A stretch of 48,455 nt of DNA from an uncultured Verrucomicrobiales bacterium (GTDB lineage: Bacteria; Verrucomicrobiota; Verrucomicrobiia; Verrucomicrobiales; Akkermansiaceae): contig CALEOR010000139.1 in the NCBI GenBank assembly GCA_937910245.1, positions 1 through 48,455 of the forward strand. Reading direction: 5' to 3'. Positions 22,623 through 42,145 of the stretch are shown here, in pieces (positions within the stretch are counted from its first letter, which is position 1; every line of letters begins with the position of its first letter). The notes beneath the pieces are model-generated. The model was not told the origin of the DNA and did not search any database. It worked only from the letters and a program-made list of their open reading frames with translations. A program made the position numbers and the translations under genes.

Positions 22623-22652
22623 CCGTTTCTCATACTCACCGTTAATGTCAAA

Positions 22653-22976
22653 ATGTTAGCCCGCATCATGACCATCGCCGGGCTCTTGGCTCTGGCCAGC
22701 ACCTGTTTACAGGCTGAGTCACTTGACATCGAAAACATAGACGTCGGCGATTCTACGGTCACCTGGAGGTGGATCCCGACCCAAGTCGATACTAATCCGC
22801 CATCTGACACTGGTCTCTACTGAGTCCGGGCATTTGATACGGAAAATCCTGATGATCTCGATCTCATCGCAAACGTTTCCACCGCGGCCGAGATTGTCCG
22901 GCCTCGTATCCCGGCACTGCAAGAGCATTTGGATCTGGATCCGGAGTTCGTCAACCTACTGAGGGATCTACGGTAA
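22653..22976 (+). pseudogene. Small secreted-protein ORF interrupted by an in-frame TGA (22821-22823)
   Basis: The ORF reads MLARIMTIAGLLALASTCLQAES (signal peptide)...DSTVTWRWIP...GLY-TGA-VRAFDTENPD...LRDLR-TAA. The same frame stays open and coding-like for 51 codons past the TGA. Confidence 0.3.
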
Positions 22977-23250
22977 AAGGTGAATGAGCAGGATGAGAAT
23001 TCCAGAGAGCGCTCCAATCACAACAGCACCTTCCAGCGCTTGCCCCACAAAAATGGAAACACCAGGGGCAAGCCCGTGTTTTTAACGGGAGCGGGAAATC
23101 AAACGCCAGAAAACCGGGTCTTTGCGAAAGTGATTCCTCACCGAAGGACTCAGGTCTGGTCTTTGAATCATCCCATCTGTGGACAATCAGCTAATTTTTC
23201 TCCCAACCCCCGCAGTAAAAGCAGGGTCTTAAAAATAAATCACAATCCAG

Positions 23251-23278
23251 TGATCCTTTTTGTTGCGAAAGAACGCAT
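23251..23278 (+). promoter_or_regulatory. Candidate ECF-type promoter TGATCC-N16-ACGCAT
   Basis: A copy of the bipartite motif, lying 47 nt upstream of the ATG at 23326. Confidence 0.45.
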
Positions 23279-23325
23279 CACCTAACGAGCCCCACTCAAG
23301 AGGTCTCCAAAACAAAAAATTAACG

Positions 23326-24300: not shown

Positions 24301-24357
24301 ACTTCAAGCCGTCAAAGCATAGGTTACCCCCCGCAGATGCTTTGTAGCCTGCTGATT

Positions 24358-24391
24358 CGTCCTTCCCGGCATGCCGGGGAGGACGTTTTTT
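24358..24391 (+). terminator. Rho-independent terminator
   Basis: The hairpin CGTCCTTCCCGGCA/TGCCGGGGAGGACG is nearly perfect, with one G-U pair. TTTTTT follows. It lies 58 nt after the stop at 24300. Confidence 0.8.
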
Positions 24392-24575
24392 CAGTTTCCG
24401 ACCCAAGCGAGGAGATCGGCTCCGAACACGGAACTCCCTGAAAGATAAAACGGGACCATCTTTTCGCTAAACCGAATGGTTGGCTTTCATGTTGAATCCA
24501 CCACCGTTTCAAGAAAAATACATTCCCTGATTCCTCTTTTCTTCCTTCAGGCCGGCTTCACCACGCCGATCTCAG

Positions 24576-26081
24576 CTACCCCGGCAACACCACCCGAAAG
24601 ACCGAGCCTTCCCCCACGACGCTTTCGACCTCAACCCGTCCACCATGCGCCTCGATGATTGCCTTGGTGATCGCAAGGCCCAGGCCTGTTCCGTTCTTAC
24701 CATCCCGGGTCCGCGCCTTGTCCGCGCGATAAAACCTCTCAAAGACATGCTCCAGCGCCTCCGCGCTCATTCCCGGTCCGGTATCCCGCACCGCCAACGA
24801 CACCTCGCCATTTTGCTCGCCCAAGACGACCTCAATCCCGCCCTCGTCGTGATTATACTTCACTGCATTGCTCAATAAATTTAGCAAAGCCTGCCTCATC
24901 CGTTGCCGATCAAACTCCATCTTCACCGACTCCAACTCACAACGTATCACGATCTTCCGTTCATCCGCCAAAGGCTCGATCATTCGCACCACTTCTCTCG
25001 TCAGGTCCTCCAAATTCCCCTCCTCCCGCAACAGGAAAAACTCTCCCGAATCGACTTTCGACAAGGCCAGCAAGGCATCGGTCAAAGCCCGCATATGCTG
25101 CGCCGAATCCATGCACGTTTGCAAAGCCTCCTGATACTTCTCCGGCGACCTGTCGCGACTCAAGGCAAATTGACTCTTCGCCAAAATCACCGAAATGGGC
25201 GTCCGCATTTCATGGGAAGCATCGGCCGTAAATCGCACCTGATGCTCGAACGAACTCTCCAACTTCTCAAAGGTCTCATTCAAAATTCCGGACAACTTTC
25301 CCAACTCACTCCCACTCCCCTTCACCTCGATCCTTCCCGACAAATCTCCCCCGGCAATCCGGTGTGCCGTATCGCTAATCACCCCAATCGGCTTCAACGA
25401 GCGGCCAATCAAAAGCCACCCGACCAAAAACCCTCCCCCAACAATGAGCACCCCGGTCACCACCAAACGCAGTGCGAGTGTCGCAAGCGTGTCTTCGATC
25501 GGCTTGATCGCAGCACCGACCAACAAAAAACCACCCCCGGGACTCGCATGAATCACTTCCCGATACCCGTCCACCGTCCGCTTCGAATGACTCTCTCCTC
25601 CCCGCGGTACCTCTTCGGGAATCGGCCTTTGATCCTCCGGCGCATTCCCGGAAGCAAAACGCAACTCCCCATCCCGATCCCACTGGATCACAAAAATATC
25701 ATCCTCCGCCAGTTCCTCCACAACCTCATCCAGGGTTGGCCCCCTTTCCTCTCCCGGGTCGTCCCGACGCCCCTCCCCACGACCTTCCGGCGGCCCATTA
25801 TTAGGTCCCGGTCTTCTCCCGGGGCCCGGTCCGAACTCACCCCCAAACTCATCAAGCGGATCCGGCCTCGGAATCCTGCGATTTCTTGGAGGAGGCTCCC
25901 GCCGTCCCATCCGTGGCAACAAGCGCGTGATGGGGCTGTTTAACTCACGGTCGAGCGCCTGGTACAAAATCTCCCGCTGATTCTGGTAAAAGGCCCCCAA
26001 CAAGGCCGCGATGATCCCCGCGAGCAGGAGCGCGTACCAAAGCTGAATCCGCCAGCGAATCGATTGCGGGAAGAACTTCAT
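24576..26081 (-). CDS. Two-component sensor histidine kinase (HAMP-HisKA-HATPase)
   Basis: A 501-aa ORF with two TM helices. The H-box is FTADASHEMRTPIS, and the N and G boxes are LLSNAVKYN and GTGLGLAI. The periplasmic region is unusually rich in Pro/Gly/Arg/Glu. Confidence 0.9.
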   Translation of the reverse strand: MKFFPQSIRWRIQLWYALLLAGIIAALLGAFYQNQREILYQALDRELNSPITRLLPRMGRREPPPRNRRIPRPDPLDEFGGEFGPGPGRRPGPNNGPPEGRGEGRRDDPGEERGPTLDEVVEELAEDDIFVIQWDRDGELRFASGNAPEDQRPIPEEVPRGGESHSKRTVDGYREVIHASPGGGFLLVGAAIKPIEDTLATLALRLVVTGVLIVGGGFLVGWLLIGRSLKPIGVISDTAHRIAGGDLSGRIEVKGSGSELGKLSGILNETFEKLESSFEHQVRFTADASHEMRTPISVILAKSQFALSRDRSPEKYQEALQTCMDSAQHMRALTDALLALSKVDSGEFFLLREEGNLEDLTREVVRMIEPLADERKIVIRCELESVKMEFDRQRMRQALLNLLSNAVKYNHDEGGIEVVLGEQNGEVSLAVRDTGPGMSAEALEHVFERFYRADKARTRDGKNGTGLGLAITKAIIEAHGGRVEVESVVGEGSVFRVVLPG

Positions 26082-26738
26082 CTAAATTGACTCCACAATA
26101 TACCCCTGCCCACGCCGCGTCTTGATGAAGTCCTTCCCGAACTTCTGCCGCAGTTTGTATACGTAAACATCGAGCATGTTCGACATCGACTCATCGTTCT
26201 CATCGAAAAGATGATCATATAAAAAATCCCGCGTCACCACTTCATCGCGATGCTGGATCATCAACTCCGCCATCGCAAACTCCCGCGCGGTCACTTCCAC
26301 TTCCTTGTCATTCACCTTCAGGGTCTTCGCCGTCGTGTTAATGGTCACCTTTCCCACCGTCACCTCCGGTCGGTGCTCGCCGCCATTGCGTCGGATTACC
26401 GCCCGCACCCGCGCCACCAACTCCGCCAGATCAAAGGGCTTTGCCAAATAATCATCGGCCCCGTGGTTCAACCCCTTCACCTTATCCTGCACCTGATCCA
26501 GCGCCGTCAACATGAGCACCGGCGTCTGGCGCTCCTTCCGCAATTTTTCCAAAACCTCCCAACCATCCATCACCGGCATCATGACATCCAGCACCACGAG
26601 ATCATAATCCCAGTTCAGCGCCTTATAGAGCCCCTCCTCCCCATCCGCCGATTCATCGACCGCAAAGGATTCCTCCCGCAAGGTCTCCGCCACAACTTCC
26701 CGCAAATCATCCTGATCCTCCACAACAAGCACTCTCAT
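26082..26738 (-). CDS. OmpR/PhoB-family response regulator
   Basis: A 218-aa ORF with a receiver domain (VVEDQDD...DLVVLDVMMP) and a winged-helix output (LTAREFAMAELM...RRGQGY). It abuts the kinase gene with no gap. Confidence 0.92.
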   Translation of the reverse strand: MRVLVVEDQDDLREVVAETLREESFAVDESADGEEGLYKALNWDYDLVVLDVMMPVMDGWEVLEKLRKERQTPVLMLTALDQVQDKVKGLNHGADDYLAKPFDLAELVARVRAVIRRNGGEHRPEVTVGKVTINTTAKTLKVNDKEVEVTAREFAMAELMIQHRDEVVTRDFLYDHLFDENDESMSNMLDVYVYKLRQKFGKDFIKTRRGQGYIVESI

Positions 26739-26941
26739 AGTAATCTCAAGCTATTCCCGGCATCCTGAACAGAAGATGAACGAAGACAAGAAATCTACAA
26801 AAGAGCCCCTCCTCCTTCCCTCAATATCATGACCCTCCCCAATTCTCCCTCCCGCCAGACCATCCACATCTTGTATCCCAAAGCAGGGCATATAAATTCA
26901 AAGGAGTAAAAGGAACTTCACAGCAGCTCCGTAGGAAGGAC

Positions 26942-27727
26942 GTGCGTGAATCTTCGAGCAATGATGGGCTTCCCCAAACTCCGGCAAAACAAGGACAATT
27001 CTTCAATAAGAGCCTCATCACCAATCTGATCGCAATTCTCCTGGCAGTCGTCGGCTATTTTTTGGATGAGCCCTTACGTGAACCGATTTTAAACATCGGG
27101 CTTTTTGCATTCTCCGGAGCTCTCACAAATTGGCTCGCGATTCACATGCTCTTTGAAAAAGTTCCGGGCTTCTACGGATCGGGAGTGATCCCCGCGCGTT
27201 TTGAAGATTTTAAGGAAGGGATTCATCAACTCATCATGCGGCAGTTTTTCACCCGGGAGAACCTGGCACGCTTTTTTACGGGGAATGATGGGACCGAAAA
27301 CCCGGGAGTGGATCTGGTGCCCTTGCTTGATTCAGTCGACCTCGATCCCTCCTTCGAGGCCTTGAAGGCGGCGGTGATGGAATCAAAATTCGGGGGCACT
27401 CTCGCCATGTTTGGAGGAGCGGCGGCACTCGATCCCATCAAACCGGACTTTGTTGAAAAGATGAGAACCGCGATGAAAGAGATCGTGTCGTCCGAGGATT
27501 TTCAGGAGAAACTCCAGGCTCTGGTGACGGGAGGTGGCGACGATGGAGATCATTCGGAACTTCTGGACCGGGTGAACGTGATCGTTGAGAAACGCCTCGA
27601 GGAATTGACGCCCCGGATGGTGAAAGAAATTATCCAGCAAATGATCCGCGCGCACTTGGGATGGTTGGTGGTCTGGGGAGGGGTTTGCGGAGGCTTGATC
27701 GGCTTCGTTGCCAGTCTCCTGGGCTAA
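26942..27727 (+). CDS. DUF445-like membrane protein
   Basis: A 261-aa ORF starting at GTG. The motif GALTNWLAIHMLFEKVPG...GVIP is typical of DUF445/YheB-like proteins. It has a C-terminal TM helix. Confidence 0.65.
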   Translation: MRESSSNDGLPQTPAKQGQFFNKSLITNLIAILLAVVGYFLDEPLREPILNIGLFAFSGALTNWLAIHMLFEKVPGFYGSGVIPARFEDFKEGIHQLIMRQFFTRENLARFFTGNDGTENPGVDLVPLLDSVDLDPSFEALKAAVMESKFGGTLAMFGGAAALDPIKPDFVEKMRTAMKEIVSSEDFQEKLQALVTGGGDDGDHSELLDRVNVIVEKRLEELTPRMVKEIIQQMIRAHLGWLVVWGGVCGGLIGFVASLLG

Positions 27728-27759
27728 GACGCCGGCCGCTCTCAAGCGGGTCTCCCCTC

Positions 27760-28224
27760 TCAGTAAATCCACGGCAACAGGCGCTTTACCCGCCGGGCAT
27801 AGCTCTCGTAGTCGGAAAACTTGAGAAGCAGGCGGCGCTCTTCGTGGCGGGCCTTGGCATCAAGAAAACCCAGGGTCACGAAGGCAAGGGTTAGCCCGGG
27901 AAGGCTTCGCCACCACAGGGCCCACGCAAAAAACAGCAGGATCACGCTGGTGTAGATCGGGTGCCGGACAATGCCATAGATGCCACTTTGGACCAACCGG
28001 GCTTCCGGTAAGGGCTCGGGAAAAACCGTCCGGCTGCGGCCGAGGGAGAGCGCTCCGGCGATGCCGAAGATGGCACCGGGCACACCCAGCACCACCGCTG
28101 CGATCTTGCTCCCAAATCCATCCCAGGCGTCCGCCCAAACAGGGGCCACCGCCATTCCAGCAAGCATCAGCGCCGCCTGGACCATGACCCAGCCGCCCCC
28201 TCGTTTCCAAAATCTCCTGTTCAT
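27760..28224 (-). CDS. Isoprenylcysteine carboxyl methyltransferase (ICMT)-family membrane methyltransferase
   Basis: A 154-aa ORF with GIYGIVRHPIYTS and EERRLLLKFSDYESYARRV motifs and multiple TM helices. Confidence 0.8.
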   Translation of the reverse strand: MNRRFWKRGGGWVMVQAALMLAGMAVAPVWADAWDGFGSKIAAVVLGVPGAIFGIAGALSLGRSRTVFPEPLPEARLVQSGIYGIVRHPIYTSVILLFFAWALWWRSLPGLTLAFVTLGFLDAKARHEERRLLLKFSDYESYARRVKRLLPWIY

Positions 28225-28250
28225 GATAGATGGTAATTAACATAATCCAC

Positions 28251-28348
28251 CGAGAAAGCTAAGAGCCAACCGCTGAAAGCCAATCGCCATGGTGCTTAGG
28301 GCCTTTGGCTCCGAACCGATCCCCAGCTGATCGCACTGCCGGGCGTCC
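28251..28348 (+). repeat. Copy A of a conserved ~100-nt intergenic element (candidate structured leader RNA)
   Basis: About 88% identical by eye to 37799-37893. It is non-coding in all frames. It contains the hairpin AGCCAA-UC-GCC...GGC-CU-UUGGCU. It lies ~80-175 nt upstream of the ATG at 28428. Confidence 0.5.
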
Positions 28349-28427
28349 CAATCCTTCATCTTGGGAACTGTTATAAGAATCGTTTGATGATTGCTCTCCC
28401 TACCTCAAATTCGCTATTCCTTCAGTC

Positions 28428-29330
28428 ATGAAAGGACGCTTTATCCACGACGCCGGAGGCGAATCCTTCGAGCTTGAAGAACATAGTGCCATCGGCCGCA
28501 GTCCGGATTCCGTGGTCCCGGTTGCCGATCCACGGGCATCCCGACGTCATGCCGTCATCCGGCGTCAGGATGATGGCTTCTGGTTCTTCGACCTGGGAAG
28601 TAGCAATGGCAGCTACCTCAATGGCAGGCGGGTCACCACCGCACAGCTCTTGAAAAACGGCGATATGGTCATGATCGGCAACCATCAACTCCGCTTCGAA
28701 GGGACTTCTCTACCCGCAACCCAATCGAGCGCAACCCACTCGCAACAGACCATGATCGGGGTGCAGTCAAAGGACGCCCTCATCCTGGTGAGCGACATTC
28801 AGGGCTTCACCGCGCTCTCGGAGCAACTCTCCCCCGACGAACTCGCCCCCATCATGGGCTCGTGGTATGCCGCCATCGGCCTGGTCCTCGAGGAGCACGG
28901 TGCGACTCTCGACAAGTTCATCGGCGACTGCGTCCTCGCCTATTGGCTGAACACCGCCACACCGACCCGCCTCGCCGCCATGCATGCCGCCCGCGCCATG
29001 CAAAGGGTCGCCGACGAAGTTCAGCGAGATCACCGTGAATCCCTCGCCCGGGTTGACCTGAGTTTTAAAACCGGGGCCGCCATCCACCTTGGATCGGTCG
29101 CCTATGGCGCCATCAGTGCAGGTGAATTCACCCTCTTGGGAGACGCCGTCAATATCACCTTCCGCCTGGAATCCCTCACCCGCAATATCAACAAGCCCGT
29201 CCTCGTCAGCGGCGAATTCCTAACGGGATGGGACAGCGGCCAGGCTCTCTGCGACTCCTGTGGCTCGCATCAGGTCAAAGGCCGTGCCGAACCCGTCGAG
29301 GTCTTCTCTCTCGAACGCGCACCCGAGTGA
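28428..29330 (+). CDS. FHA domain-containing class III adenylate/guanylate cyclase
   Basis: A 300-aa ORF. The FHA core is IGRSPDS...ASRRHAVIRR...DLGSSNGSYLNG. The cyclase core is ILVSDIQGFTALSE...KFIGDCVLAYW...GDAVNITFRLES. Confidence 0.9.
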   Translation: MKGRFIHDAGGESFELEEHSAIGRSPDSVVPVADPRASRRHAVIRRQDDGFWFFDLGSSNGSYLNGRRVTTAQLLKNGDMVMIGNHQLRFEGTSLPATQSSATHSQQTMIGVQSKDALILVSDIQGFTALSEQLSPDELAPIMGSWYAAIGLVLEEHGATLDKFIGDCVLAYWLNTATPTRLAAMHAARAMQRVADEVQRDHRESLARVDLSFKTGAAIHLGSVAYGAISAGEFTLLGDAVNITFRLESLTRNINKPVLVSGEFLTGWDSGQALCDSCGSHQVKGRAEPVEVFSLERAPE

Positions 29331-29349
29331 ACCTCTCCCTTTCCCCGAC

Positions 29350-29898
29350 ATGCCCGACTACACCCGATGGCTCAACGCCTCCACCAACTCGGGTGAAGAC
29401 GACCTCTTTGCCGGCCTTTACACCGAACTGAAGAAAATCGCAGGCGGCCGCATGGCTCTGGAACGGCAGGGCGGCACTCTCGATGCCACCGCCCTCGTCC
29501 ACGAAGCCTGGCTCCGCCTCCAGAAGTCCGCCCCGGAGAAATGGCGCGACCGCAAGCAATTCTTCGCCGCCGCTGCCGAGGCCATGCGCCGCATTCTTGT
29601 CGAATCCGCCCGCCGTCGCCTCGCCGCGAAACGCGGTGCCGGGGAGGACGCCGTCCCGCTCGATGGCCTCGATCTCCCGTCGCCCGTCGCCGATGAACGC
29701 CTCCTCGGCATCCACGAAGTCCTCGACCAACTCGCCCTCGAGGACGAACTCAAGGCCCACATCGTCAAACTCCGCTTCTTCGGCGGCATGAATCACGACG
29801 AGATTGCCGCCCTTCTCGAAATCAGCGAAAAAACCGTCCGCCGCCACTGGTCCCTCGCCAAAATCTGGCTCTACCGGGCCATGAAAAAAGAAGACTGA
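29350..29898 (+). CDS. ECF sigma factor, TIGR02999-like (kinase-associated type)
   Basis: I chose the start at MPDYTRWLNAS, parallel to MADVTRWLNAS of the 39981 paralog. It lies 19 nt after the cyclase stop. The same signature blocks as in 18600-19139 are present (LVHEAWLRL, FFAAAAEAMRRILVESAR, VKLRFFGGM...EKTVRRHW). Confidence 0.9.
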   Translation: MPDYTRWLNASTNSGEDDLFAGLYTELKKIAGGRMALERQGGTLDATALVHEAWLRLQKSAPEKWRDRKQFFAAAAEAMRRILVESARRRLAAKRGAGEDAVPLDGLDLPSPVADERLLGIHEVLDQLALEDELKAHIVKLRFFGGMNHDEIAALLEISEKTVRRHWSLAKIWLYRAMKKED

Positions 29899-29905
29899 GA
29901 TTTCC

Positions 29906-29933
29906 TGTCCGTTTTTCCCACCCTTTCACGCGT
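29906..29933 (+). promoter_or_regulatory. Candidate ECF-type promoter TGTCCG-N16-ACGCGT
   Basis: A copy of the bipartite motif in the 46-nt sigma-kinase spacer. The -10-like box ends 11 nt before the kinase ATG at 29945. Confidence 0.5.
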
Positions 29934-29944
29934 GCCCCCTTGTT

Positions 29945-32599
29945 ATGACCACTCCCGCCCAAGACCTCTTCGCCCAGGCCCACGACCTGGATCCCGACGC
30001 TCGTGAGGCCTTCCTTGCCAAAGCCTGTGGCGACGACGCCGAACTCCACCTCGAGGTCCAGCGCCTCCTCGTCGATGCCGAGAAGGCCCAATCCTTCTTT
30101 GCGGACACCGAAGGTGCCACCATCGGCGCCGAGGAATTCGACGAGACCTACACCGAGGCCGAGGGCGACGTCGTCGGCCCCTACACCCTGCGCCAACAAA
30201 TTGGCGAGGGCGGCTTCGGCACCGTCTGGATGGCCGAGCAAAGCGAACCCATCTCGCGCATGGTCGCCCTCAAGGTCATCAAGGCCGGGATGGACACCAA
30301 GCAGGTCCTCGCCCGCTTCGAGGCCGAGCGCCAGGCCGTCGCGATGATGGATCACCCCAATATCGCCAAAGTCCTCGACGCCGGTGCCACTTCCACCGGC
30401 CGACCCTACTTCGCGATGGAGCTCGTCAAGGGCATCCCCATCACCCAGTTCTGCGATCAGCAGAAGTTTGGCCCCAAACGCCGCCTCGAGCTCTTCCGCG
30501 ACGTCTGCGCCGCCGTCCAACACGCCCACCAGAAGGGCATCATCCACCGCGACCTCAAGCCCTCCAACATCATGGTCACCCTCGCCGCCGATGTCCCGGT
30601 GGTGAAGGTCATCGACTTCGGCATCGCCAAGGCCACCCAAAACAAGCTCACCGAAAAGACCCTCTTCACCCGCTTCGAGCAGTTCCTCGGCACCCCGGTC
30701 TACATGAGCCCCGAGCAGGCCGCGATGAGTGCGATCGACATCGACACCCGCTCGGACATCTACAGCCTCGGCGTCCTTCTTTACGAACTCCTCGCCGGTG
30801 CCCCGCCCTTCGATCAAAAGTCGCTCCTCTCCGCCGGTTACGACGAAATGCGCCGCATCATCGTGGAAGACGAACCGCCCAAGCCCAGTACCCGCTGCAC
30901 CGAGACCCAAGCCAATACCACGACCGGAACCGGATCAAAGCCCAGGAAATCTCATCTCAGCCCCAGCGCCCTGAAGGGCGAACTGGACTGGATCGTGATG
31001 AAGGCCATCGAGAAGGACCGCACCCGTCGCTACGAGACCGCCAACGCCTTCGCCTCCGACATCGGGCGCTACCTTTCCGACGAACCGGTGCAAGCCGCCG
31101 CGCCAAGTTCCACCTACAAGTTCAAGAAATTCGCCCGGCGCAACAAGGCCGCCTTTTCGGTGGCCGCCGCGATGCTCGTCTTGCTCCTCGCAGGCATCGC
31201 CACCACCAGCTGGCAGGCGGTGCGGGCCACGCAAGAGGCCGAACGGGCGACCCAGGCCGAGAAAAAAGCCACCGAAGAGAGCGAGGCCAAGACCGCAGCG
31301 CTCGAGGACGCCAAAGCGACCTCGAAGTTCCTGACCGACATGTTCAAGAGCTCCCGGCCCGGCGAGGAGAAGGGCGGGCGCAAGGTCAAGGTCGCAGAAG
31401 TCCTCGATCGGGCCGCGAAGCAACTGGATGACGACACCCAAATGCTCCCGAGAACGCGCGCAGTGCTGCAGGGGGCACTTGGAAAAACCTACAATGCCCT
31501 CGGGCTCTATCCACAGGCCATCCCGCTGCTGGAACAGGTATGGAAGTACTCCCTCGCAGCCCTCAGCCCGGAGCACCCCGACACGCTCGAGGCGATGGGC
31601 AACCTGGCGATTTCCTACCAGCGTGCCGGCCACCGGGTCGAGTCGATCAAAATTTTAGAGAAGGTGTTGCTGCTCCAGCGCAAAGTGCTCGACCCGGAGC
31701 ACCCCGACACGCTCAGATCGATGAACAGTCTGGCGCATTGCTACCACGCCGCCGGCCGCTGGGACGAGGCGCTCAAGATGCAAGAAGAGTTGCTGCCGCT
31801 GTGCCTGCAGGTGAGCGGCCCGAAGCACCCCGACACGCTCGTAGCAATGGCCTCCCTGGTGGAATCCTACTACTATGTAGACCGCCGGGACAAGATGCGC
31901 AAAGTGCTCGAGGAGCTGCTGCCGTTATCCAACGAGGTGTTCAAACCGGAGCACCCCTTCACGCTCCAGGCGAAGCGCGGCCTGGCGATTTTACACTCCG
32001 ATGCCGGCCGACTGGACGAGGCGATCAAGCTGGGCGAGGAGGTGCTGGCACTTTCCCTCAAGGCGGTTGGCCCGAAGCATTTCATCACGCTCCAGGTAAT
32101 GGGCTCCCTGGCGGATTTCTACTCCGATGATGGTCGCCGTGACGAGGCGATTAAGCTGGGCGAGGAAGTGCTGGCGCTTTCCCGCGAGGTGAATGGCCCC
32201 AAGCACCACAACACGCTCTCGATGATGAGCACTCTCTCAATCATTTACAACGATGCCGGGCGAAGCGCAGACGCGATCAAGCTCGGAAAATCGGGTCTCG
32301 ATTTGCATTTGAAAGTCATTGGGGAGAAGCACCCCGACACCCTCAATGCCATGACCAACCTCGCCATCTGTTATCAAGTGGCCGACCGCCTCAAGGAGGC
32401 CATTGCCCTGGAGGAAAAGGCGCTCGGGCTGAAACGTCGGATCCTTCGGTCCGGGCATCGGAAAACGATCGAATCGATGGACAACCTCGCCACCTACTAC
32501 GAGAAGGCGGACCGCAAGGAGGAAGCAAAGCCCCTCCGCGACGAGATCGCCAAGCTCAAAGCGGACGCCGCCAAAGCAACACCCCCGCCCACAGAATGA
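29945..32599 (+). CDS. Hanks-type Ser/Thr protein kinase, single TM, C-terminal TPR sensor
   Basis: An 884-aa ORF with kinase motifs GEGGFGTVW, VALK, HRDLKPSN, DFG and SPE. The TM helix is AAFSVAAAMLVLLLAGIATT. Eight clear 42-aa TPR_12-like units follow (EHPDTL...). Confidence 0.92.
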   Translation: MTTPAQDLFAQAHDLDPDAREAFLAKACGDDAELHLEVQRLLVDAEKAQSFFADTEGATIGAEEFDETYTEAEGDVVGPYTLRQQIGEGGFGTVWMAEQSEPISRMVALKVIKAGMDTKQVLARFEAERQAVAMMDHPNIAKVLDAGATSTGRPYFAMELVKGIPITQFCDQQKFGPKRRLELFRDVCAAVQHAHQKGIIHRDLKPSNIMVTLAADVPVVKVIDFGIAKATQNKLTEKTLFTRFEQFLGTPVYMSPEQAAMSAIDIDTRSDIYSLGVLLYELLAGAPPFDQKSLLSAGYDEMRRIIVEDEPPKPSTRCTETQANTTTGTGSKPRKSHLSPSALKGELDWIVMKAIEKDRTRRYETANAFASDIGRYLSDEPVQAAAPSSTYKFKKFARRNKAAFSVAAAMLVLLLAGIATTSWQAVRATQEAERATQAEKKATEESEAKTAALEDAKATSKFLTDMFKSSRPGEEKGGRKVKVAEVLDRAAKQLDDDTQMLPRTRAVLQGALGKTYNALGLYPQAIPLLEQVWKYSLAALSPEHPDTLEAMGNLAISYQRAGHRVESIKILEKVLLLQRKVLDPEHPDTLRSMNSLAHCYHAAGRWDEALKMQEELLPLCLQVSGPKHPDTLVAMASLVESYYYVDRRDKMRKVLEELLPLSNEVFKPEHPFTLQAKRGLAILHSDAGRLDEAIKLGEEVLALSLKAVGPKHFITLQVMGSLADFYSDDGRRDEAIKLGEEVLALSREVNGPKHHNTLSMMSTLSIIYNDAGRSADAIKLGKSGLDLHLKVIGEKHPDTLNAMTNLAICYQVADRLKEAIALEEKALGLKRRILRSGHRKTIESMDNLATYYEKADRKEEAKPLRDEIAKLKADAAKATPPPTE

Positions 32600-32748
32600 T
32601 CACCCTTGCCCTGAGCATCTTTGCCCGGGCTCAGGACCAGGCCACGACTGTAGCCGGCTTTGCCCATTGACACCCATCCCACCGTGATGATCGAATGGGA
32701 TGATCGGACGAGTGACAAGTTGAAGACCTCTTTCTGACCTCTCTCCTT

Positions 32749-32828
32749 AAAGAAGAACTTCTTTCGCAACAGTCTCCCCTAAAAAAGAAATCTTTACTTC
32801 ATCCCCCTCTAGAGAAAGAATTCTTTCT
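32749..32828. promoter_or_regulatory. Three AAAGAA/TTCTTT palindromes (operator-like array) upstream of fic
   Basis: The palindromes are AAAGAAGaaCTTCTTT (32749-32764), AAAGAaaTCTTT (32784-32795) and AGAAAGAATTCTTTCT (32813-32828). Their centres are 33 and 31 bp apart. The last ends 2 nt before the ATG at 32831. Confidence 0.5.
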
Positions 32829-32830
32829 TA

Positions 32831-34012
32831 ATGAATCAGCTCCGTGTCACAGGCAGCGCCGAAACCACGACTGTGGCAGGAGAAGGAGTGGCTGCATTCG
32901 TGCCGCTTCCCTTGCCGCCGGTGGCTCCCTCGCTGGAGCTCAACGAAGCGATGCGGGAACAGATCCGCGCCGCCGAGGAAGGCCTCCGTCGATTGGAACT
33001 GGCTGGGGAGATGGTGCCTTCGCTTGACTGGTTCATCTACGGCTTCGTGCGCAAGGAGGCCGTCCTCTCCTCCCAGATCGAGGGCACGCAGGCGACTCTG
33101 GTGGATCTCCTGAACTTCGAGGCCAGGGGGAGCCACGAAGCGCCGGAGAACGCCGACATCCGGGAAGTCTGCAACTCCCTGGAAGCACTCGACCATGCCC
33201 GCGACCAGCTCCGCCGCCCGGACGGGTTGCCCCTTTCGATGCGCCTCCTGAACGAAGCTCACGCCCGCCTGATGCAGGGAGCGAGAGGAGCCGACAAACT
33301 TCCCGGCGAGATCCGTCGAAGCCAGAACTGGATCGGTGGCACCCGCCCGGGCAATGCCACCTTCGTGCCGGCCCCGCCTCACCGACTCGACGGCCTCTTG
33401 TCGGATTTTGAAAAATACCTGCATGCGGACGACGACGAACTCCCCCCGCTGGTGAGGGCAGGGCTCCTGCACGTTCAGTTCGAGACCATCCACCCCTACC
33501 TCGATGGCAACGGCCGGATCGGGCGGCTTCTGGTCATGCTCTTACTCGAGGACTGGGGGCTTCTCGCGGCCCCGCTGCTCTACCTGAGCCTGTTCTTCAA
33601 GCGGCACCGCGGCGAATACTACCGGCGGCTCGCCGCTGTTAGGACGGATGGCGACTGGGAGGGCTGGACGTCCTTCTTCCTCGAAGCCGTCGCGACGATC
33701 GCCGGGGAGGCGGTCTCGACGGCCCGCGATCTCTTCGCCCTGGTCAGTCGCGACCGGGCGCGCGTCCTGACCACTCCCGGCAGTACCGTGATCGCCGCCC
33801 GCTTGTTCGAGATGCTGCCGCAGCATCCGGTCATCACGATCGGGTCGGCGGTGACGCTGCTGGAGACCACCCGGCCGACCGCCACCAAGGCAGTGACGGC
33901 CTTGGTCCATGCCGGTGTGCTGGCGGAGACCTCCGGCAAGAAGCGCGACCGCTCGTTCGGCTATGCGGCCTATCTTGATCTGCTGAAAGTGGGGACGGGG
34001 CTCGAGCGGTAA
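32831..34012 (+). CDS. Fic family protein (putative AMPylase) with N-terminal inhibitory motif and C-terminal winged-helix region
   Basis: A 393-aa ORF. The Fic active-site motif is HPYLDGNGRIGR. The N-terminal SSQIEG fits the [ST]xxxE[GN] auto-inhibition motif (class II arrangement). The C-terminal ~90 aa are wHTH-like. Confidence 0.9.
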   Translation: MNQLRVTGSAETTTVAGEGVAAFVPLPLPPVAPSLELNEAMREQIRAAEEGLRRLELAGEMVPSLDWFIYGFVRKEAVLSSQIEGTQATLVDLLNFEARGSHEAPENADIREVCNSLEALDHARDQLRRPDGLPLSMRLLNEAHARLMQGARGADKLPGEIRRSQNWIGGTRPGNATFVPAPPHRLDGLLSDFEKYLHADDDELPPLVRAGLLHVQFETIHPYLDGNGRIGRLLVMLLLEDWGLLAAPLLYLSLFFKRHRGEYYRRLAAVRTDGDWEGWTSFFLEAVATIAGEAVSTARDLFALVSRDRARVLTTPGSTVIAARLFEMLPQHPVITIGSAVTLLETTRPTATKAVTALVHAGVLAETSGKKRDRSFGYAAYLDLLKVGTGLER

Positions 34013-34155
34013 GTAATCGAAACAGGCTCCGCTCAAAAGACAGAGAGAAAGGCCCTCTGCAGAGCGGAAGGCTGGGAACTCCGTCCTCGTCCCACCCCAT
34101 CCCTGAGGGAAACTGACAGCACCGAGTCGTAGGAATTTGCTCCGGTGGGAAAAGG

Positions 34156-34192
34156 AAAAAGCCCCCTGCCGGCAAGGTGCCGTCAGGGGGCT
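34156..34192 (-). terminator. Rho-independent terminator (serves the minus-strand gene; sits between convergent genes)
   Basis: The stem is GCCCCCTG (34161-34168) pairing with CAGGGGGC (34184-34191). On the minus strand it is followed by TTTTTCCTTTTC. It lies 20 nt after the stop at 34212. Confidence 0.7.
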
Positions 34193-34211
34193 TGGGAAAT
34201 CCTCGGGAGGA

Positions 34212-35039
34212 CTACCTCCGGCGCCGTGCCAGGAGCCATCCAAACGCGGAGACCAGCAGGACGCTCGATGACGGTTCGGGAACCGGCGTAAATGACTGAC
34301 CGGCCGTAAGCCCATCAATGTCATTTTTGACAGCCGATAATCCAACCAAATCAAAGAATCCAATGTTCGTTCCAAAAGCGCCGGCTGCGGGCGACTCCGG
34401 GGCTGACCCGAGAAAGCCCATACCGGCCACTAACTCAGTTCCTAAGAGCATTGAATGGTCTAATGACGGCCCCCCACTCGTGGTGGGAAATACGAAGGCC
34501 TGAATCGTTGGATCCGTCGGATAGGGTGCGAATGGGAGACCCAAGTCAAAAGGATCCGACATGGTCTGCGGAGCACCGTCTATTGTGACGTAGAAAAATC
34601 CAAATCCTGAGACCTCCGACAGAACCGCTTGCCCGCCGGAATCAACGACTTCAATTCCGAAAAGGTGAAGGCAACCTGGTAGAATTGGGTCAGGCACAAG
34701 AGGCGTCCCCACAACAGTTTCGGAAGTAAACGAGAAAAACGTGGATCCGTCGGGCTGGTCCGTTCTCACGGCCGAATGCCTCCCACCACCAACGACCATG
34801 GGCGGACCGGTCGTCGGAAACTCCCCCTCAATCTCACCATCAAAAAAGTTCTCCGTGTGAAAAGTGATGCTGGCTCCGTTTGCATCGGACGGATGTGCGA
34901 AGCCCGACCAGGCTACGACACCAATCAAACTCAGTTGCGAGAGGGAGGAACAAGCGAGGAACTCGCGATTAAGGATTTTTTTCATGATACGAATTGGGGG
35001 TTGTTTTGGTTTCTTTTGCCGGGCGCTTTTGCCCGTCAT
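34212..35039 (-). CDS. PEP-CTERM domain secreted protein
   Basis: A 275-aa ORF with C-terminal VPEPSSSVLLVSAFGWLLARRRR. The start at 35039 lies 6 nt downstream of a promoter-like motif, suggesting a leaderless mRNA. The alternative start MKKILNREF at 34985 gives a more canonical signal peptide. Confidence 0.8.
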   Translation of the reverse strand: MTGKSARQKKPKQPPIRIMKKILNREFLACSSLSQLSLIGVVAWSGFAHPSDANGASITFHTENFFDGEIEGEFPTTGPPMVVGGGRHSAVRTDQPDGSTFFSFTSETVVGTPLVPDPILPGCLHLFGIEVVDSGGQAVLSEVSGFGFFYVTIDGAPQTMSDPFDLGLPFAPYPTDPTIQAFVFPTTSGGPSLDHSMLLGTELVAGMGFLGSAPESPAAGAFGTNIGFFDLVGLSAVKNDIDGLTAGQSFTPVPEPSSSVLLVSAFGWLLARRRR

Positions 35040-35045
35040 CCCCCC

Positions 35046-35073
35046 ATGCGTATTCCGGCTAAAAAAACGGACA
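35046..35073 (-). promoter_or_regulatory. Candidate ECF-type promoter TGTCCG-N16-ACGCAT (minus strand)
   Basis: The minus strand reads TGTCCG-TTTTTTTAGCCGGAAT-ACGCAT-GGGGGG-ATG. This is the only minus-strand copy, and it is correctly oriented for the minus-strand gene. Confidence 0.5.
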
Positions 35074-35447: not shown

Positions 35448-36707
35448 GTGATGAACAGCAATTTAACCAAGCGAGGCTTCCTCTCCCTGACCGTCGCACA
35501 ATTTTTTGGGGCGGCGAACGACAACCTTCTGAAGGTCGTACTCAGTTTTGCCGTGGGAACAGGCCTCTGGTATACCTTGCTAGGAGAGGGAGGAGTGGCT
35601 TACATCGGGCTTTGTTTTACGATGCCGTTCATTTTTCTTTCGGGTTACGCAGGACAATTGGCGGATCGAATCAGTAAACAAAAGATCTCCTACTGGGTGA
35701 AAGTCGCAGAGATCGGGATCACTTTGGTGGCGATGCTGGGATTCTGGCAGGGTAATTTATGGATCACCATGGGAGCGATGATTCTCCTGGCGATTCAAAG
35801 TGCTTTTTTTGGACCGGCCAAGTATGGCATGATTCCCGAGTTGGTGGACAAGGGAGATCTCAGCCGCGCCAATGGCGTGATCAATATGTCGACGAACATC
35901 GCCGTGATCGCGGGAACCGTGTTGGCGGGGCATGTGTCTGATGCCTATCAAGGGATCGACACGGATATGCCGCTTTCCTGGCTGCCGGGAGTGGCATTGG
36001 TAGGTGTCGCCATTCTGGGTTGGGTCGCGATTTCATTCATGCCTCGAATGGAGGCGATGGATCCTGATCTGAAGTTCGACTGGAATCCATTCGGGGTTTA
36101 CCTGACGGCCTTGAAAGAAATGAGCCGTAGTCCTTTGCTGACCGTGGCCTGTGCGTGGTCGACCTTCTACATGATCGGGATGCTGGCACTGACGATCTTG
36201 TTGGCGTATCCGAAACTGTTCGTGCTAAGTGACAGCGAAGGAGCTATGCTGCTCGGAGTGCTGGGAGTGTCAATTGGCATGGGGAGTGTGCTGGCGGGGC
36301 TGATTTCCGGACACACCATTAAACCGAAACTGATTCCGGTCGGGGCGATTGGAATGACGATCTTCTTCGCGGCCTTGGGACTGGCTCCCATGAATTACGG
36401 AATCGTGGCAACTTTCATTGCCGGTGTCGGCGTGTTTGCGGGTTTCTACATCGTTCCCTTGCAGGCACTTCTCCAGCATCTCTCACCCGATGACGAACGG
36501 GGCCGGTTTCTGGGAACCGCAAACGCGATGTCCTTTGTCGCGAGTTCGATAGGGCTCTTGATTTATATATTTACAGTCCGGGTGCTTGGGATGGAACCCA
36601 ATCGGGTGTTCTTAATTTGTGCAGGGTTGGCGTTTTTCGGGACGGGTGCCTTGATCTGGCGGATGCGTAAACTGATGGCGAAGGAAGCGAATAAAGAGGC
36701 TGCCTGA
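35448..36707 (+). CDS. MFS transporter (LplT-like lysophospholipid-transporter type)
   Basis: A 419-aa ORF with ~12 TM helices. The N-terminus FLSLTVAQFFGAANDNLLKVVL resembles the MFS module of LplT/Aas-type proteins. Confidence 0.8.
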   Translation: MMNSNLTKRGFLSLTVAQFFGAANDNLLKVVLSFAVGTGLWYTLLGEGGVAYIGLCFTMPFIFLSGYAGQLADRISKQKISYWVKVAEIGITLVAMLGFWQGNLWITMGAMILLAIQSAFFGPAKYGMIPELVDKGDLSRANGVINMSTNIAVIAGTVLAGHVSDAYQGIDTDMPLSWLPGVALVGVAILGWVAISFMPRMEAMDPDLKFDWNPFGVYLTALKEMSRSPLLTVACAWSTFYMIGMLALTILLAYPKLFVLSDSEGAMLLGVLGVSIGMGSVLAGLISGHTIKPKLIPVGAIGMTIFFAALGLAPMNYGIVATFIAGVGVFAGFYIVPLQALLQHLSPDDERGRFLGTANAMSFVASSIGLLIYIFTVRVLGMEPNRVFLICAGLAFFGTGALIWRMRKLMAKEANKEAA

Positions 36708-36747
36708 ACCCCTGAATGAACGAACGATGGCTGATGTGATCCGTTGG
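36473..36747 (+). repeat. Direct repeat copy 1: MFS 3' end plus the first 7 codons of an ECF sigma gene
   Basis: It aligns with 39679-40001 at ~88% identity, apart from a ~48-nt indel after the MFS stop. ATGGCTGATGTGATCCGTTGG (36727-36747) matches the start MADVTRW of the intact sigma gene at 39981. Homology then stops abruptly. Confidence 0.8.
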
Positions 36748-37798: not shown

Positions 37799-37893
37799 CG
37801 AGAAAGCTAAGTGCCAACCGCTAAAAGCGAATCGCCATGGTGCGTAGGGCCCTTCGCTCCGCCCCGATCCCTTGATCGCCCTGCCGGGCATCC
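37799..37893 (+). repeat. Copy B of the conserved ~100-nt intergenic element (candidate structured leader RNA)
   Basis: It aligns with 28251-28348. The hairpin here is AGCGAA...UUCGCU, against AGCCAA...UUGGCU in copy A, a compensatory C:G to G:C change. It lies ~90-185 nt upstream of the ATG at 37985. Confidence 0.5.
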
Positions 37894-39599: not shown

Positions 39600-39684
39600 C
39601 TATTTTAGCTGAACGGGTTTGGCGAAAGTGCGCATCGATCTCTCGACGGCGGGAAAGAAGTCCTTGTTCCCCCGCTGCCCAGCA
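39600..39684 (-). pseudogene. Internally deleted remnant of a paralog of the 45641-47077 gene
   Basis: Positions 39600-39622 match the last codons plus stop of 45641-47077 (...AKPVQLK* vs ...AKPVRLK*). Positions 39617-39685 match its internal segment 46427-46495 (KDFFPAVERSMRTFAK vs KDFLPAVEKSMRTFAK). The two pieces are joined at the shared hexamer TTTGGC. Confidence 0.7.
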
Positions 39685-40609: not shown

Positions 40610-40617
40610 GTTATTCC

Positions 40618-42137: not shown

Positions 42138-42145
42138 GTGATACT

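What the first reader, a model, noticed from the sequence alone, without database searches (positions are those of the whole stretch)
28428..34012. FHA-adenylate cyclase -> ECF sigma -> STK-TPR gene string followed by an autoinhibited Fic AMPylase
Seen directly. The FHA-cyclase stop (29328-29330) lies 19 nt before the sigma ATG (29350). The kinase follows 46 nt after the sigma gene, and fic starts 231 nt after the kinase behind its own palindrome array. Established knowledge: FHA domains bind phospho-threonine, and class III cyclases produce cAMP or cGMP. The inference is that the cyclase could be recruited or regulated by phospho-Thr marks written by the adjacent kinase, on the kinase itself or on the sigma. 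That would couple a transcriptional output (sigma) to a second-messenger output within one operon. I am not aware of a described ECF/STK module that includes an FHA-cyclase. The neighbouring Fic gene would add a third post-translational chemistry, but its linkage may be coincidental.
Basis: inference. Interest (0 to 1): 0.7.

Follow-up and report, generated by a model that had tools for sequence, protein, structure and literature searches.

The report
Conserved FHA-cyclase, sigma factor, kinase trio
A cAMP-making enzyme that carries a phospho-threonine reader domain sits directly in front of a kinase-switched sigma factor and its kinase, and this three-gene set recurs across a group of Verrucomicrobia, which suggests (not shown) that one kinase drives both gene expression and cAMP; the neighbouring Fic gene is not part of it.

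Summary
In detail: all four genes, the 19/46/231-nt gaps and the palindromes before fic are there.

The cyclase has an intact FHA phospho-threonine pocket and a complete class IIIb adenylyl-cyclase site. The sigma is a TIGR02999/PF07638 ECF factor of the kinase-activated kind. It has Thr47 at the sigma-2.2 position phosphorylated in EcfP/EcfK (Thr in 117/120 close homologues, Asp in 3). The kinase is an intact membrane Hanks kinase with an outward-facing TPR sensor.

The order cyclase->sigma->kinase is not unique. It recurs in seven other contigs, including Neoluteolibacter luteus and Haloferula sp. BvORR071, with different flanking genes. All linked cyclases form one clade. Three cyclase-only relatives keep sigma or kinase remnants right after the cyclase stop, so the trio is ancestral there and sigma-kinase was lost repeatedly. 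One close sigma-kinase pair (L173) lacks the cyclase.

FHA-cyclases also pair with Hanks kinases independently elsewhere in Verrucomicrobia and in Myxococcota.

Fic is never linked in relatives.

A conserved TGTCCG-N17-CGCGTG motif lies before the kinase gene, so "one operon" is only partly right.

Protein-level coupling is inferred, not shown. I rate it a new variant of a known kind, of moderate interest.

The parts
28428..29330 (+). FHA-adenylyl cyclase gene (300 aa). FHA domain about residues 1-95 (nt 28428-28712), disordered linker residues 98-111, class IIIb cyclase domain residues 112-300 (nt 28761-29327).
   Evidence: Pfam FHA and Guanylate_cyc. AF2 model with pLDDT 86 and two domains. 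Foldseek TM about 0.8 to CyaB, CyaC and Cya2. Invariant R24, S38, H41, N60, D123, K163, D167, T235, N242 and R246.
28383..28420 (+). Semi-conserved upstream block (TTTGATGATTGCT ... GCTAT) before the cyclase start; possible housekeeping-type promoter (tentative).
   Evidence: Alignment of upstream regions from 10 relatives. TTG and CTA columns are conserved in loci both with and without sigma. No sigma-70 consensus hit.
29350..29898 (+). ECF sigma factor (182 aa) of the kinase-associated TIGR02999/PF07638 type (ECF43-like).
   Evidence: The 19-nt gap after the cyclase stop is seen directly. The gap is -25 to 71 nt in orthologous loci.
29488..29490 (+). Codon for Thr47, in the motif D-A-T-A-L-V-H-E of sigma region 2.2; predicted phospho-switch residue.
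   Evidence: Thr in 117 of 120 close homologues, Asp in the other 3. Same position as EcfK T51 and the phosphorylated EcfP residue in place of the canonical DxxD (PMC13147305).
29906..29934 (+). Bipartite motif TGTCCG-N17-CGCGTG, 10 nt before the kinase ATG; promoter-like, or a regulator or translation element.
   Evidence: Both hexamers and the 17-nt spacing are invariant, with a variable spacer, in all 7 trio loci that include the junction, and in L173. Window matches: 2 against 0.01 expected.
29945..32599 (+). Receptor Hanks Ser/Thr kinase (884 aa). N-terminal conserved region residues 1-75, kinase residues 80-366, transmembrane helix residues 402-420 (nt 31148-31204), outward-facing TPR_12/TPR_10 repeats about residues 484-880.
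   Evidence: Pfam. VALK at residue 107, HRDLKPSN at 201, DFG at 224, and the hydropathy peak. Alignment with orthologues.
32723..32826 (.). Four phased palindromes (AAAGAAnnTCTTT) in the kinase-fic spacer; probably an operator for fic; not part of the trio.
   Evidence: sequence seen directly.
32831..34012 (+). Class II-type Fic protein (393 aa) with an N-terminal inhibitory motif; a neighbour whose linkage is not conserved.
   Evidence: Fic_N plus Fic. SSQIEG and HPYLDGNGRIGR. No fic homologue in any of the related loci searched.
35045..35073 (-). Second copy of the motif (TGTCCG-N17-CGCATG), 5 nt before the ATG of the minus-strand ORF 34212-35039 (PEP-CTERM-type secreted protein); candidate regulon member.

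Best explanation
This is a kinase-switched ECF sigma module of the ECF43-like kind that, in one verrucomicrobial clade, has gained a conserved third member encoded directly upstream: a soluble FHA-adenylyl cyclase.

Proposed working (all steps inferred unless marked):
1. The membrane Hanks kinase senses a cue outside the cytoplasm through its TPR domain and autophosphorylates.
2. It phosphorylates the sigma factor on Thr47 in region 2.2. This supplies the negative charge needed to bind core RNA polymerase. The mechanism is shown for the homologues EcfP and EcfK and is inferred here.
3. The same kinase's phospho-threonine marks are read by the FHA domain of the cyclase. The marks most likely sit on disordered Thr-rich segments of the kinase, or possibly on the sigma N-terminal tail (Thr5) or the cyclase's own linker (Thr108).
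4. Docking changes the localisation or dimerisation of the class IIIb cyclase domain, and so changes cAMP output.

One input would therefore give two outputs: transcription and cAMP.

Transcription (inferred): cyclase and sigma are probably co-transcribed. The kinase gene also has its own conserved promoter-like element, which would allow feedback.

Fic is an unrelated neighbour.
For: Parts are intact.
- FHA pThr pocket.
- Cyclase metal, substrate and transition-state residues, and the cyclase fold.
- Sigma Thr47 is Thr in 117/120 and Asp in 3/120 close homologues, matching the described phospho-switch (PMC13147305; PMC7826278).
- Kinase catalytic motifs and a transmembrane helix.

The trio is conserved.
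- Found by searching with the cyclase: L087, L001 and L090.
- Found by looking up sigma homologues: L166, L167 (Neoluteolibacter luteus), L168 (Haloferula sp. BvORR071) and L169.
- Flanking genes differ between these loci.
- 24 exact contig-length matches between cyclase and sigma clusters, against 1.6 expected. All 24 are of the sigma-2 type.
- Linked cyclases form one clade.
- Remnants remain right after the cyclase stop in L086 (13 sigma codons), L171 (28 aa of kinase) and L088 (kinase fragment).

FHA-cyclase pairs with these partners independently elsewhere.
- L004: FHA-cyclase followed by a kinase. L033: ECF sigma followed by FHA-cyclase.
- Myxococcota L072 and L076: FHA-GAF-cyclase followed by a kinase.

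Precedents.
- DgcB, an FHA-GGDEF cyclase activated by a phosphopeptide (PMC6733907).
- FHA proteins recruited to autophosphorylated kinases (PMC12189002).
Against: - There is no direct evidence of binding, phosphorylation, co-transcription or cyclase activity.
- The cyclase is often kept after sigma-kinase is lost: L083, L084, L085, L086, L170, L171 and L172. It occurs without them in about 100 more distant relatives. So it works without this kinase.
- One close sigma-kinase pair has no cyclase (L173/L174).
- The genome is dense in paralogous sigma-kinase modules, with three in this window. One of them has a kinase domain 95% identical to this one. Partner specificity is therefore unclear.
- Window versus L166 shows about 70% nt identity over the cyclase but about 90% over sigma-kinase. 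The units recombine independently.
- The conserved Thr108 in the linker is family-wide, not specific to the trio.
Confidence: 0.5

Rival explanations
1. Linkage is transcriptional only. The sigma-kinase cassette landed behind a constitutively expressed cyclase gene and uses its promoter. The FHA-cyclase reads pThr marks from other kinases, or from none of these, and has no specific protein-level tie to this sigma or kinase.
For: - The cyclase is retained whenever sigma-kinase is lost.
- The upstream block before the cyclase is conserved in loci with and without sigma.
- The cyclase-sigma gap is too short for a promoter (13-71 nt).
- The sigma-kinase part recombines independently of the cyclase.
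- There are many paralogous kinases.
Against: - FHA-cyclase pairs with Hanks kinases in unrelated lineages with other gene orders. A promoter-sharing accident would not repeat in this way.
- FHA domains are dedicated pThr readers and are usually encoded near their kinases (my own knowledge; Pallen et al. 2002, listed).
Confidence: 0.28
2. The FHA-cyclase acts on the sigma pathway rather than downstream of it. It would bind phosphorylated sigma or the kinase as a scaffold, or as an anti-sigma-like brake, standing in for the anti-sigma factor these ECF groups lack. cAMP synthesis would be a secondary read-out.
For: - Kinase-associated ECF groups lack anti-sigma factors (PMC7826278).
- Seven of the eight close sigma homologues with readable upstream DNA, plus the window's own sigma, have the cyclase directly upstream.
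- The sigma N-terminal tail has a conserved Thr5 followed by R-W-L. This fits a pT-x-x-L type FHA ligand (my own knowledge of FHA preferences).
Against: - Thr47 lies in sigma region 2.2, which is helical in known sigma factors, and FHA domains bind extended peptides (my inference).
- The L173 sigma-kinase pair works without a cyclase.
- The catalytic residues of the cyclase are under full conservation, so cAMP synthesis is not vestigial.
Confidence: 0.1
3. The synteny is neutral inheritance in a young clade and the adjacency has no functional meaning.
For: - Linkage is confined to one clade of cyclases at 52% identity or more.
- It is lost often.
Against: - Cyclase identity within linked loci falls to 52%, and the flanking genes are all different. 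Neighbourhoods are otherwise scrambled.
- The sigma-kinase spacer (39-46 nt) varies little, although the cyclase-sigma gap ranges from -25 to 71 nt.
- The pairing has arisen independently elsewhere.
Confidence: 0.12

Closest known systems
ECF43 sigma/Hanks kinase pairs: Vibrio parahaemolyticus EcfP-PknT and Xanthomonas citri EcfK-PknS
   Same: - An ECF sigma with no anti-sigma factor and a membrane Hanks kinase encoded next to it.
- A Thr in region 2.2 replacing an acidic residue of the DxxD motif (here D-A-T47-A; EcfK Q-A-T51-E).
- Expected activation by direct phosphorylation (PMC13147305; PMC7826278).
   Different: - Here a conserved FHA-adenylyl cyclase gene precedes the sigma gene. No such partner is described for EcfP or EcfK.
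- The kinase sensor is TPR (LRR in one orthologue; another, L166, is cut off by its contig end).
- Assignment to ECF43 proper, rather than ECF59-62, 217 or 283, was not tested.
Bdellovibrio DgcB (FHA-GGDEF diguanylate cyclase)
   Same: - An N-terminal FHA domain fused to a palm-fold second-messenger cyclase.
[quoted passage not shown]
- Full-length DgcB is a Foldseek hit of the model.
   Different: - The product is c-di-GMP, not cAMP.
- The activating phosphopeptide is DgcB's own N-terminal tail.
- It is not encoded with a sigma factor and kinase.
FHA adaptor proteins recruited to autophosphorylated Hanks kinases (GarA/OdhI with PknG/PknB; FhaA)
   Same: - The FHA domain here aligns best to GarA/OdhI, with an identical SRRHA and GSxNG[ST] signature.
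- The recruitment logic is the one proposed here (PMC12189002).
   Different: - Those FHA proteins regulate metabolic enzymes or cell-wall factors by binding.
- Here the FHA domain is fused to a catalytic cyclase domain.
Class IIIb adenylyl cyclases (P. aeruginosa CyaB, Spirulina CyaC, bPAC/OaPAC; Synechocystis Cya1, which as I recall also has an N-terminal FHA domain)
   Same: - Cyclase fold with a Lys-Thr substrate pair.
- Two metal-binding Asp and the Asn/Arg transition-state residues.
   Different: - The regulatory domains there are BLUF, MASE or none.
- No link to an ECF/kinase module has been described.
- The FHA domain of Cya1 is from my memory and was not confirmed in the papers read.

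Membership tests
Kinase-associated ECF sigma factors (ECF43-like; TIGR02999 / PF07638) | ECF architecture (sigma-2 plus sigma-4 only) and a family model score above the curated cut-off | tested here: met
   PF07638 matches over residues 5-179 at E 2e-40. TIGR02999 scores 178.8 bits against a cut-off of 126.15.
Kinase-associated ECF sigma factors (ECF43-like; TIGR02999 / PF07638) | A Hanks-type kinase gene co-encoded next to sigma, and no anti-sigma factor gene | tested here: met
   The kinase starts 46 nt downstream. The neighbours are the cyclase and the kinase only. The same holds in 7 orthologous loci.
Kinase-associated ECF sigma factors (ECF43-like; TIGR02999 / PF07638) | A Thr in region 2.2 in place of an acidic residue of DxxD (the phospho-switch) | tested here: met
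   D45-A-T47-A48-L-V-H-E. Thr in 117/120 and Asp in 3/120 close homologues. The position corresponds to EcfK T51.
Kinase-associated ECF sigma factors (ECF43-like; TIGR02999 / PF07638) | Direct phosphorylation of sigma by the cognate kinase, and phosphorylation-dependent RNA polymerase binding | not testable with these tools
   Needs a kinase assay and mass spectrometry.
Kinase-associated ECF sigma factors (ECF43-like; TIGR02999 / PF07638) | Placement in ECF43 itself by the ECF classification models (as opposed to ECF59-62, 217, 267 or 283) | not tested
   The ECF Hub models are not available here, and the paper's supplements are not held.
FHA phospho-threonine binding domain | The domain model plus the pThr-contacting residues: Arg after Gly (beta3-4 loop), Ser-x-x-His, and Asn-Gly-Ser/Thr | tested here: met
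   PF00498 at 63.8 bits. G23-R24, S38-R39-R40-H41 and N60-G61-S62 align to GarA. They are invariant in 133 homologues.
FHA phospho-threonine binding domain | Binding of a phospho-threonine peptide | not testable with these tools
   Needs binding assays.
Class III nucleotidyl cyclase, subclass IIIb adenylyl cyclase | Cyclase homology domain fold | tested here: met
   PF00211 at 39.6 bits against a cut-off of 21.9. A profile search against PDB hits bPAC at E 5e-30. Foldseek TM is about 0.8 to CyaB, CyaC and Cya2.
Class III nucleotidyl cyclase, subclass IIIb adenylyl cyclase | Two metal-binding Asp, a substrate Lys plus Thr (IIIb pair), and transition-state Asn and Arg | tested here: met
   D123, D167, K163, T235, N242 and R246 are conserved in all 16 clade members and in nearly all of the 133 homologues. 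The assignment of roles is from my knowledge of class III cyclases.
Class III nucleotidyl cyclase, subclass IIIb adenylyl cyclase | cAMP synthesis by a homodimer | not testable with these tools
   Needs an enzyme assay.
Hanks-type receptor Ser/Thr kinase | Catalytic Lys (VAxK), the HRDxKxxN loop and DFG; a membrane anchor with an outward-facing sensor | tested here: met
   VALK at residue 107, HRDLKPSN at 201, DFG at 224, and a hydrophobic helix at residues 402-420 followed by TPR repeats.
Class II (N-terminally autoinhibited) Fic AMPylase | The Fic motif HxFx(D/E)GNGRxxR and the inhibitory (S/T)xxxE(G/N) motif in an N-terminal helix | tested here: met
   HPYLDGNGRIGR at residues 221-232 (Tyr for Phe). 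SSQIEG at residues 80-85, inside Fic_N.
Class II (N-terminally autoinhibited) Fic AMPylase | Equivalence to SoFic by the NCBIfam equivalog cut-off | tested here: not met
   NF046030 scores 153 bits against a cut-off of 550. It is a family member, not an equivalog.
Proposed cyclase-sigma-kinase(-Fic) module | Fic conserved next to the trio | tested here: not met
   tblastn with Fic finds nothing in any related locus. Genes downstream of the kinase differ in each.
Proposed cyclase-sigma-kinase(-Fic) module | The order cyclase-sigma-kinase conserved in relatives with otherwise different neighbourhoods | tested here: met
   Seen in L087, L001, L090, L166, L167, L168 and L169. Remnants remain in L086, L171 and L088. 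Exception: L173.

The most novel reading that the evidence does not exclude
A three-protein phospho-threonine circuit in which one receptor Hanks kinase both switches on an ECF sigma factor (at Thr47) and, through an FHA reader domain, gates a class IIIb adenylyl cyclase. This would be the first described link between sigma-factor phosphorylation and cAMP signalling. The same STK-to-FHA-cyclase logic appears to recur independently in other Verrucomicrobia and in Myxococcota. A bolder version is that the FHA-cyclase also docks on the phosphorylated sigma tail and takes the place of the missing anti-sigma factor.
Probability: 0.4. Interest if true: 0.72.

Novelty: new variant of a known kind. 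Interest (0 to 1): 0.55.

Why it matters
Kinase-activated ECF sigma factors were demonstrated only recently and in two systems. Nothing is known about accessory partners.

FHA-cyclases are common in genomes, but I know of no identified upstream kinase for one, and none turned up in my literature searches.

A conserved trio gives a concrete, testable pairing in two cultured bacteria, Neoluteolibacter luteus (CP051774.1) and Haloferula sp. BvORR071. If it holds, it would show how a single extracytoplasmic signal is split into a slow transcriptional output and a fast second-messenger output.

The conserved TGTCCG-N17-CGCGTG element also offers a candidate target promoter for this poorly studied sigma group.

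Tried and rejected
- Terminators and sigma-70 promoters in 27700-34400: no promoter hits, and terminator-like hits at the chance level, none between the genes.
- Rfam on the whole window: nothing.
- Thr108 as a trio-specific autoinhibitory phospho-site: it is near-invariant and lies in the disordered linker, but it is equally conserved in unlinked, distant homologues. It is not evidence for this coupling.
- A Thr motif specific to the trio kinases: the activation-loop and juxtamembrane threonines are shared with paralogues.
- Fic as a fourth member: rejected, since it is never linked.
- 'Gene order unique to this contig': rejected.
- An extra copy of the motif upstream of the cyclase or sigma (autoregulation of the whole set): not found.
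- The PEP-CTERM ORF behind the second motif has no homologue in related loci.
- Literature on ECF43 plus FHA, or on FHA-cyclase plus ECF/kinase: nothing relevant. The supplements of the ECF classification paper are not held.
- Contig-length matching is only a proxy for co-residence. It was checked directly for two pairs (L166 and L001).


Full report
**1. Observation**

- FHA-cyclase: 28428-29330.
- Sigma: ATG 29350 to 29898.
- Kinase: 29945-32599.
- Fic: 32831-34012.

The gaps are 19, 46 and 231 nt, read directly.

Pfam and NCBIfam give the following.
- Cyclase: FHA (E 2e-17) plus Guanylate_cyc (E 5e-10).
- Sigma: Sigma70_ECF (E 2e-40) and TIGR02999 (178.8 bits, cut-off 126).
- Kinase: Pkinase plus seven TPR_12 stretches.
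- Fic: Fic_N plus Fic.

Four palindromes of the form AAAGAAnnTCTTT, about 31 nt apart, precede fic.

**2. The parts are intact**

FHA domain. It aligns best to GarA/OdhI, with the same SRRHA and GSxNG[S/T] signatures. G23-R24, S38, R39, H41 and N60 are invariant in alignments of 15 and 55 relatives. They are also invariant in 133 homologues recovered from genomes and metagenomes.

Cyclase domain. It keeps both metal-binding aspartates (D123, D167), the Lys163/Thr235 substrate pair typical of class IIIb adenylyl cyclases, and Asn242/Arg246. The assignment of roles is from my knowledge of class III cyclases. A profile search of PDB sequences hits bPAC, OaPAC and P. aeruginosa CyaB.

Structure. 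An AlphaFold2 model (mean pLDDT 86) shows two folded domains joined by a disordered linker at residues 98-111. Foldseek gives TM of about 0.8 to CyaB, CyaC and Cya2. It also hits full-length DgcB, an FHA-GGDEF enzyme.

Kinase. It has VALK, HRDLKPSN and DFG, and one hydrophobic helix at residues 402-420 before the TPR repeats. The sensor should therefore face outwards.

**3. The sigma is of the kinase-activated kind**

Kinase-associated ECF groups (ECF43, ECF59-62 and others) lack anti-sigma factors. They are thought to be switched on by direct phosphorylation (PMC7826278).

In EcfP and EcfK the phospho-site is a Thr in region 2.2. It replaces an acidic residue of the canonical DxxDxxQE; EcfK reads Q-A-T51-E (PMC13147305).

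The window sigma reads D45-A-T47-A-L-V-H-E. Among the 120 closest homologues, position 47 is Thr in 117 and Asp in the other 3. That is the pattern expected of a phospho-switch.

I did not test which numbered ECF group it belongs to.

**4. The gene order is conserved**

Searching genomes and metagenomes with the cyclase, followed by tblastn with the window's sigma and kinase, found sigma directly downstream of the cyclase in three loci.
- L087: cyclase 75%, sigma 71%, kinase 74% identity.
- L001: cyclase 57%, sigma 80%.
- L090: cyclase 53%, sigma 72%.

Looking up sigma homologues gave the full trio in four of five look-ups.
- L166.
- L167, Neoluteolibacter luteus CP051774.1.
- L168, Haloferula sp. 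BvORR071.
- L169.

Flanking genes differ in every case. The kinase sensor also varies: TPR in most and LRR in L169; L166's kinase runs off the end of its contig.

24 cyclase and sigma protein clusters share exactly the same longest-contig length, against 1.6 expected. All 24 are closer to this sigma than to its paralogue in the window.

In a neighbour-joining tree, all linked cyclases fall in one clade, at 52% identity or more to the window. None of about 100 more distant FHA-cyclases has sigma directly downstream.

**5. Losses leave remnants**

L086 is collinear with window 24582-29385 at 77-86% nt identity. It keeps 13 codons of the sigma 5' end (PDYSQWLNASTAS) right after the cyclase stop, then unrelated DNA.

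L171 has a 28-aa piece of the kinase activation segment 12 nt after the cyclase stop (E 7e-8). L088 has a kinase C-lobe fragment in the same place.

L081/L082 carry a different sigma-kinase pair (44% and 51% identity) 873 nt downstream, behind an opposite-strand gene.

L083, L084, L085, L170 and L172 have the cyclase only.

So the trio is ancestral in the clade. Sigma-kinase has been deleted repeatedly, and the cyclase has stayed.

Conversely, L173/L174 have a sigma 82% identical to this one with a split kinase-WD40 and no cyclase. The cyclase is a frequent accessory, not an obligate part.

**6. Independent pairings elsewhere**

In another verrucomicrobial clade, an FHA-cyclase is followed by a 922-aa Hanks kinase with no sigma (L004). 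In another, a PF07638 sigma directly precedes an FHA-cyclase (L033).

In Myxococcota, FHA-GAF-cyclase genes are immediately followed by Hanks kinase genes: L072 (Hyalangium versicolor) and L076.

This repetition is the best argument that the FHA-cyclase and the kinase work together rather than merely sharing a promoter.

**7. Transcription**

No terminator-like site lies between the genes, and no sigma-70 consensus was found.

The cyclase-sigma gap is -25 to 71 nt across loci and carries no conserved motif. Co-transcription of the two genes is therefore likely.

The sigma-kinase spacer is 39-46 nt. It holds TGTCCG-N17-CGCGTG, with both hexamers and the spacing invariant and a variable T-rich spacer, ending 10-12 nt before the kinase ATG. 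This is so in all seven trio loci that include the junction, and in L173. L087 has a second copy before a second kinase paralogue, with the same geometry.

In the window, a second copy (TGTCCG-N17-CGCATG, 35045-35073, minus strand) sits 5 nt before the ATG of a PEP-CTERM-type ORF. That is two matches against 0.01 expected.

This looks like a promoter, possibly the sigma's own target. A regulator site (CACGCGTG is a palindrome) or a translation element is not excluded. 'One operon' is therefore only partly supported.

**8. Mechanism**

Shown by sequence: intact reader, writer, switch and enzyme, and a conserved linkage.

Inferred: the kinase phosphorylates sigma Thr47, and FHA docking on kinase-written pThr marks controls the cyclase. 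The docking step follows the GarA/FhaA recruitment logic (PMC12189002). The control step follows the DgcB precedent (PMC6733907).

pThr47 itself is an unlikely FHA ligand, because sigma region 2.2 is helical in known sigma factors (my inference). Disordered Thr-rich kinase segments, or the conserved sigma N-terminal tail (Thr5, 98% conserved), are better candidates.

Caveats.
- The window holds three sigma-kinase modules. The kinase domain of the third (42146-44890, with a WD40 sensor) is 94.7% identical in protein to this one. Cross-talk is likely.
- The sigma-kinase part recombines independently of the cyclase.

**9. Fic**

Its motifs fit a class II autoinhibited Fic. It scores far below the SoFic equivalog cut-off. 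It is absent from every related locus. Its adjacency is coincidental.

**10. Novelty and verdict**

The sigma-kinase pair is a new member of a known kind. The FHA-cyclase architecture and the general FHA-kinase logic are known. The conserved three-gene combination was not found in the literature searched.

I rate it a new variant of a known kind, with interest 0.55. I put the probability that the FHA-cyclase is functionally coupled to this kinase at about 0.5.

Noticed in passing
window 29906-29934 (+) and 35045-35073 (-); L087 8472-8500 and 11972-12000; L166 2720-2748; L167 and L168 7556-7584; L169 7560-7588; L001 7274-7302; L173 6493-6521: Bipartite motif TGTCCG-N17-CGC(G/A)TG with invariant hexamers and spacing. 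In relatives it always lies just upstream of kinase genes. In the window it also lies just upstream of a PEP-CTERM ORF (34212-35039, minus strand). It is a candidate promoter for this sigma group.
   Followed up: partly
window 18600-22622 and 39981-44890: Two more sigma/Hanks-kinase modules lie in the same window. The first is sigma 18600-19139 plus STK-TPR 19374-22622. The second is sigma 39981-40526 (70% identical to the finding's sigma), then an inserted MFS gene at 40618-41943, then STK-WD40 at 42146-44890. The kinase domain of that last protein is 94.7% aa / 89.6% nt identical to the finding's kinase (29957-31143 against 42161-43353). This points to recent gene conversion or duplication, with a different sensor domain.
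   Followed up: partly
window 40514-40635 ~ 42041-42163; 36473-36747 ~ 39679-40001; 28251-28348 ~ 37799-37893: Short segmental duplications. The sigma-kinase junction is duplicated on both sides of the inserted MFS gene. The 3' end of the MFS gene 35448-36707, plus about 35 nt, is repeated just before the third sigma. A 98-nt stretch upstream of the cyclase recurs at the start of the glutamate-synthase-like gene (85.7% identity).
   Followed up: no
window 32723-32826: Four palindromes, AAAGAAnnTCTTT, about 31 nt apart (three helical turns), lie between the kinase stop and the fic start. They are probably an operator array. The binding protein is unknown.
   Followed up: partly
window 28428-31250 versus L166 1236-3990: Mosaic identity: about 70% nt over the cyclase but about 90% over sigma and the first half of the kinase. 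The step falls near the cyclase/sigma junction, which suggests cassette-like exchange of the sigma-kinase unit.
   Followed up: partly
window 1-46 and 48408-48453: The first 46 bases are the exact reverse complement of bases 48408-48453. This is possibly an assembly artefact at the contig ends.
   Followed up: no
window 17755-24582 versus L086 3061-3208: Relative to the close relative L086, the window carries about 6.8 kb extra. This includes the first sigma/STK-TPR module and a GDSL lipase gene. It is an insertion here or a deletion there.
   Followed up: no
L085 (CP121322.1) 2445-4496, 9243-9737 and 11651-13699: In a cyclase-only relative, the FHA-cyclase sits among two cNMP-binding-domain genes and a CHASE2-cyclase. 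This is a local cyclic-nucleotide signalling neighbourhood.
   Followed up: no
L167 10637-11884 and L168 10655-11902: In Neoluteolibacter luteus and Haloferula sp. BvORR071, a 415-aa BNR/sortilin-like protein gene starts 7 nt after the kinase stop. It may be a genus-specific fourth member of the cluster.
   Followed up: no
window 28001-34000: The cyclase-sigma-kinase-fic block is richer in G+C (61-63%) than most of the window (flanks 54%; rest 52-59%).
   Followed up: no
window 29945-30170 (kinase residues 1-75): A conserved N-terminal region lies before the kinase domain (consensus around L-F-x-x-A-x-x-L ... C-G-x-D-x-E-L-x-L-x-V-x-R-L-L). It matches no Pfam family and is shared by the kinases of these sigma-kinase modules. 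It may be a sigma-docking region.
   Followed up: no
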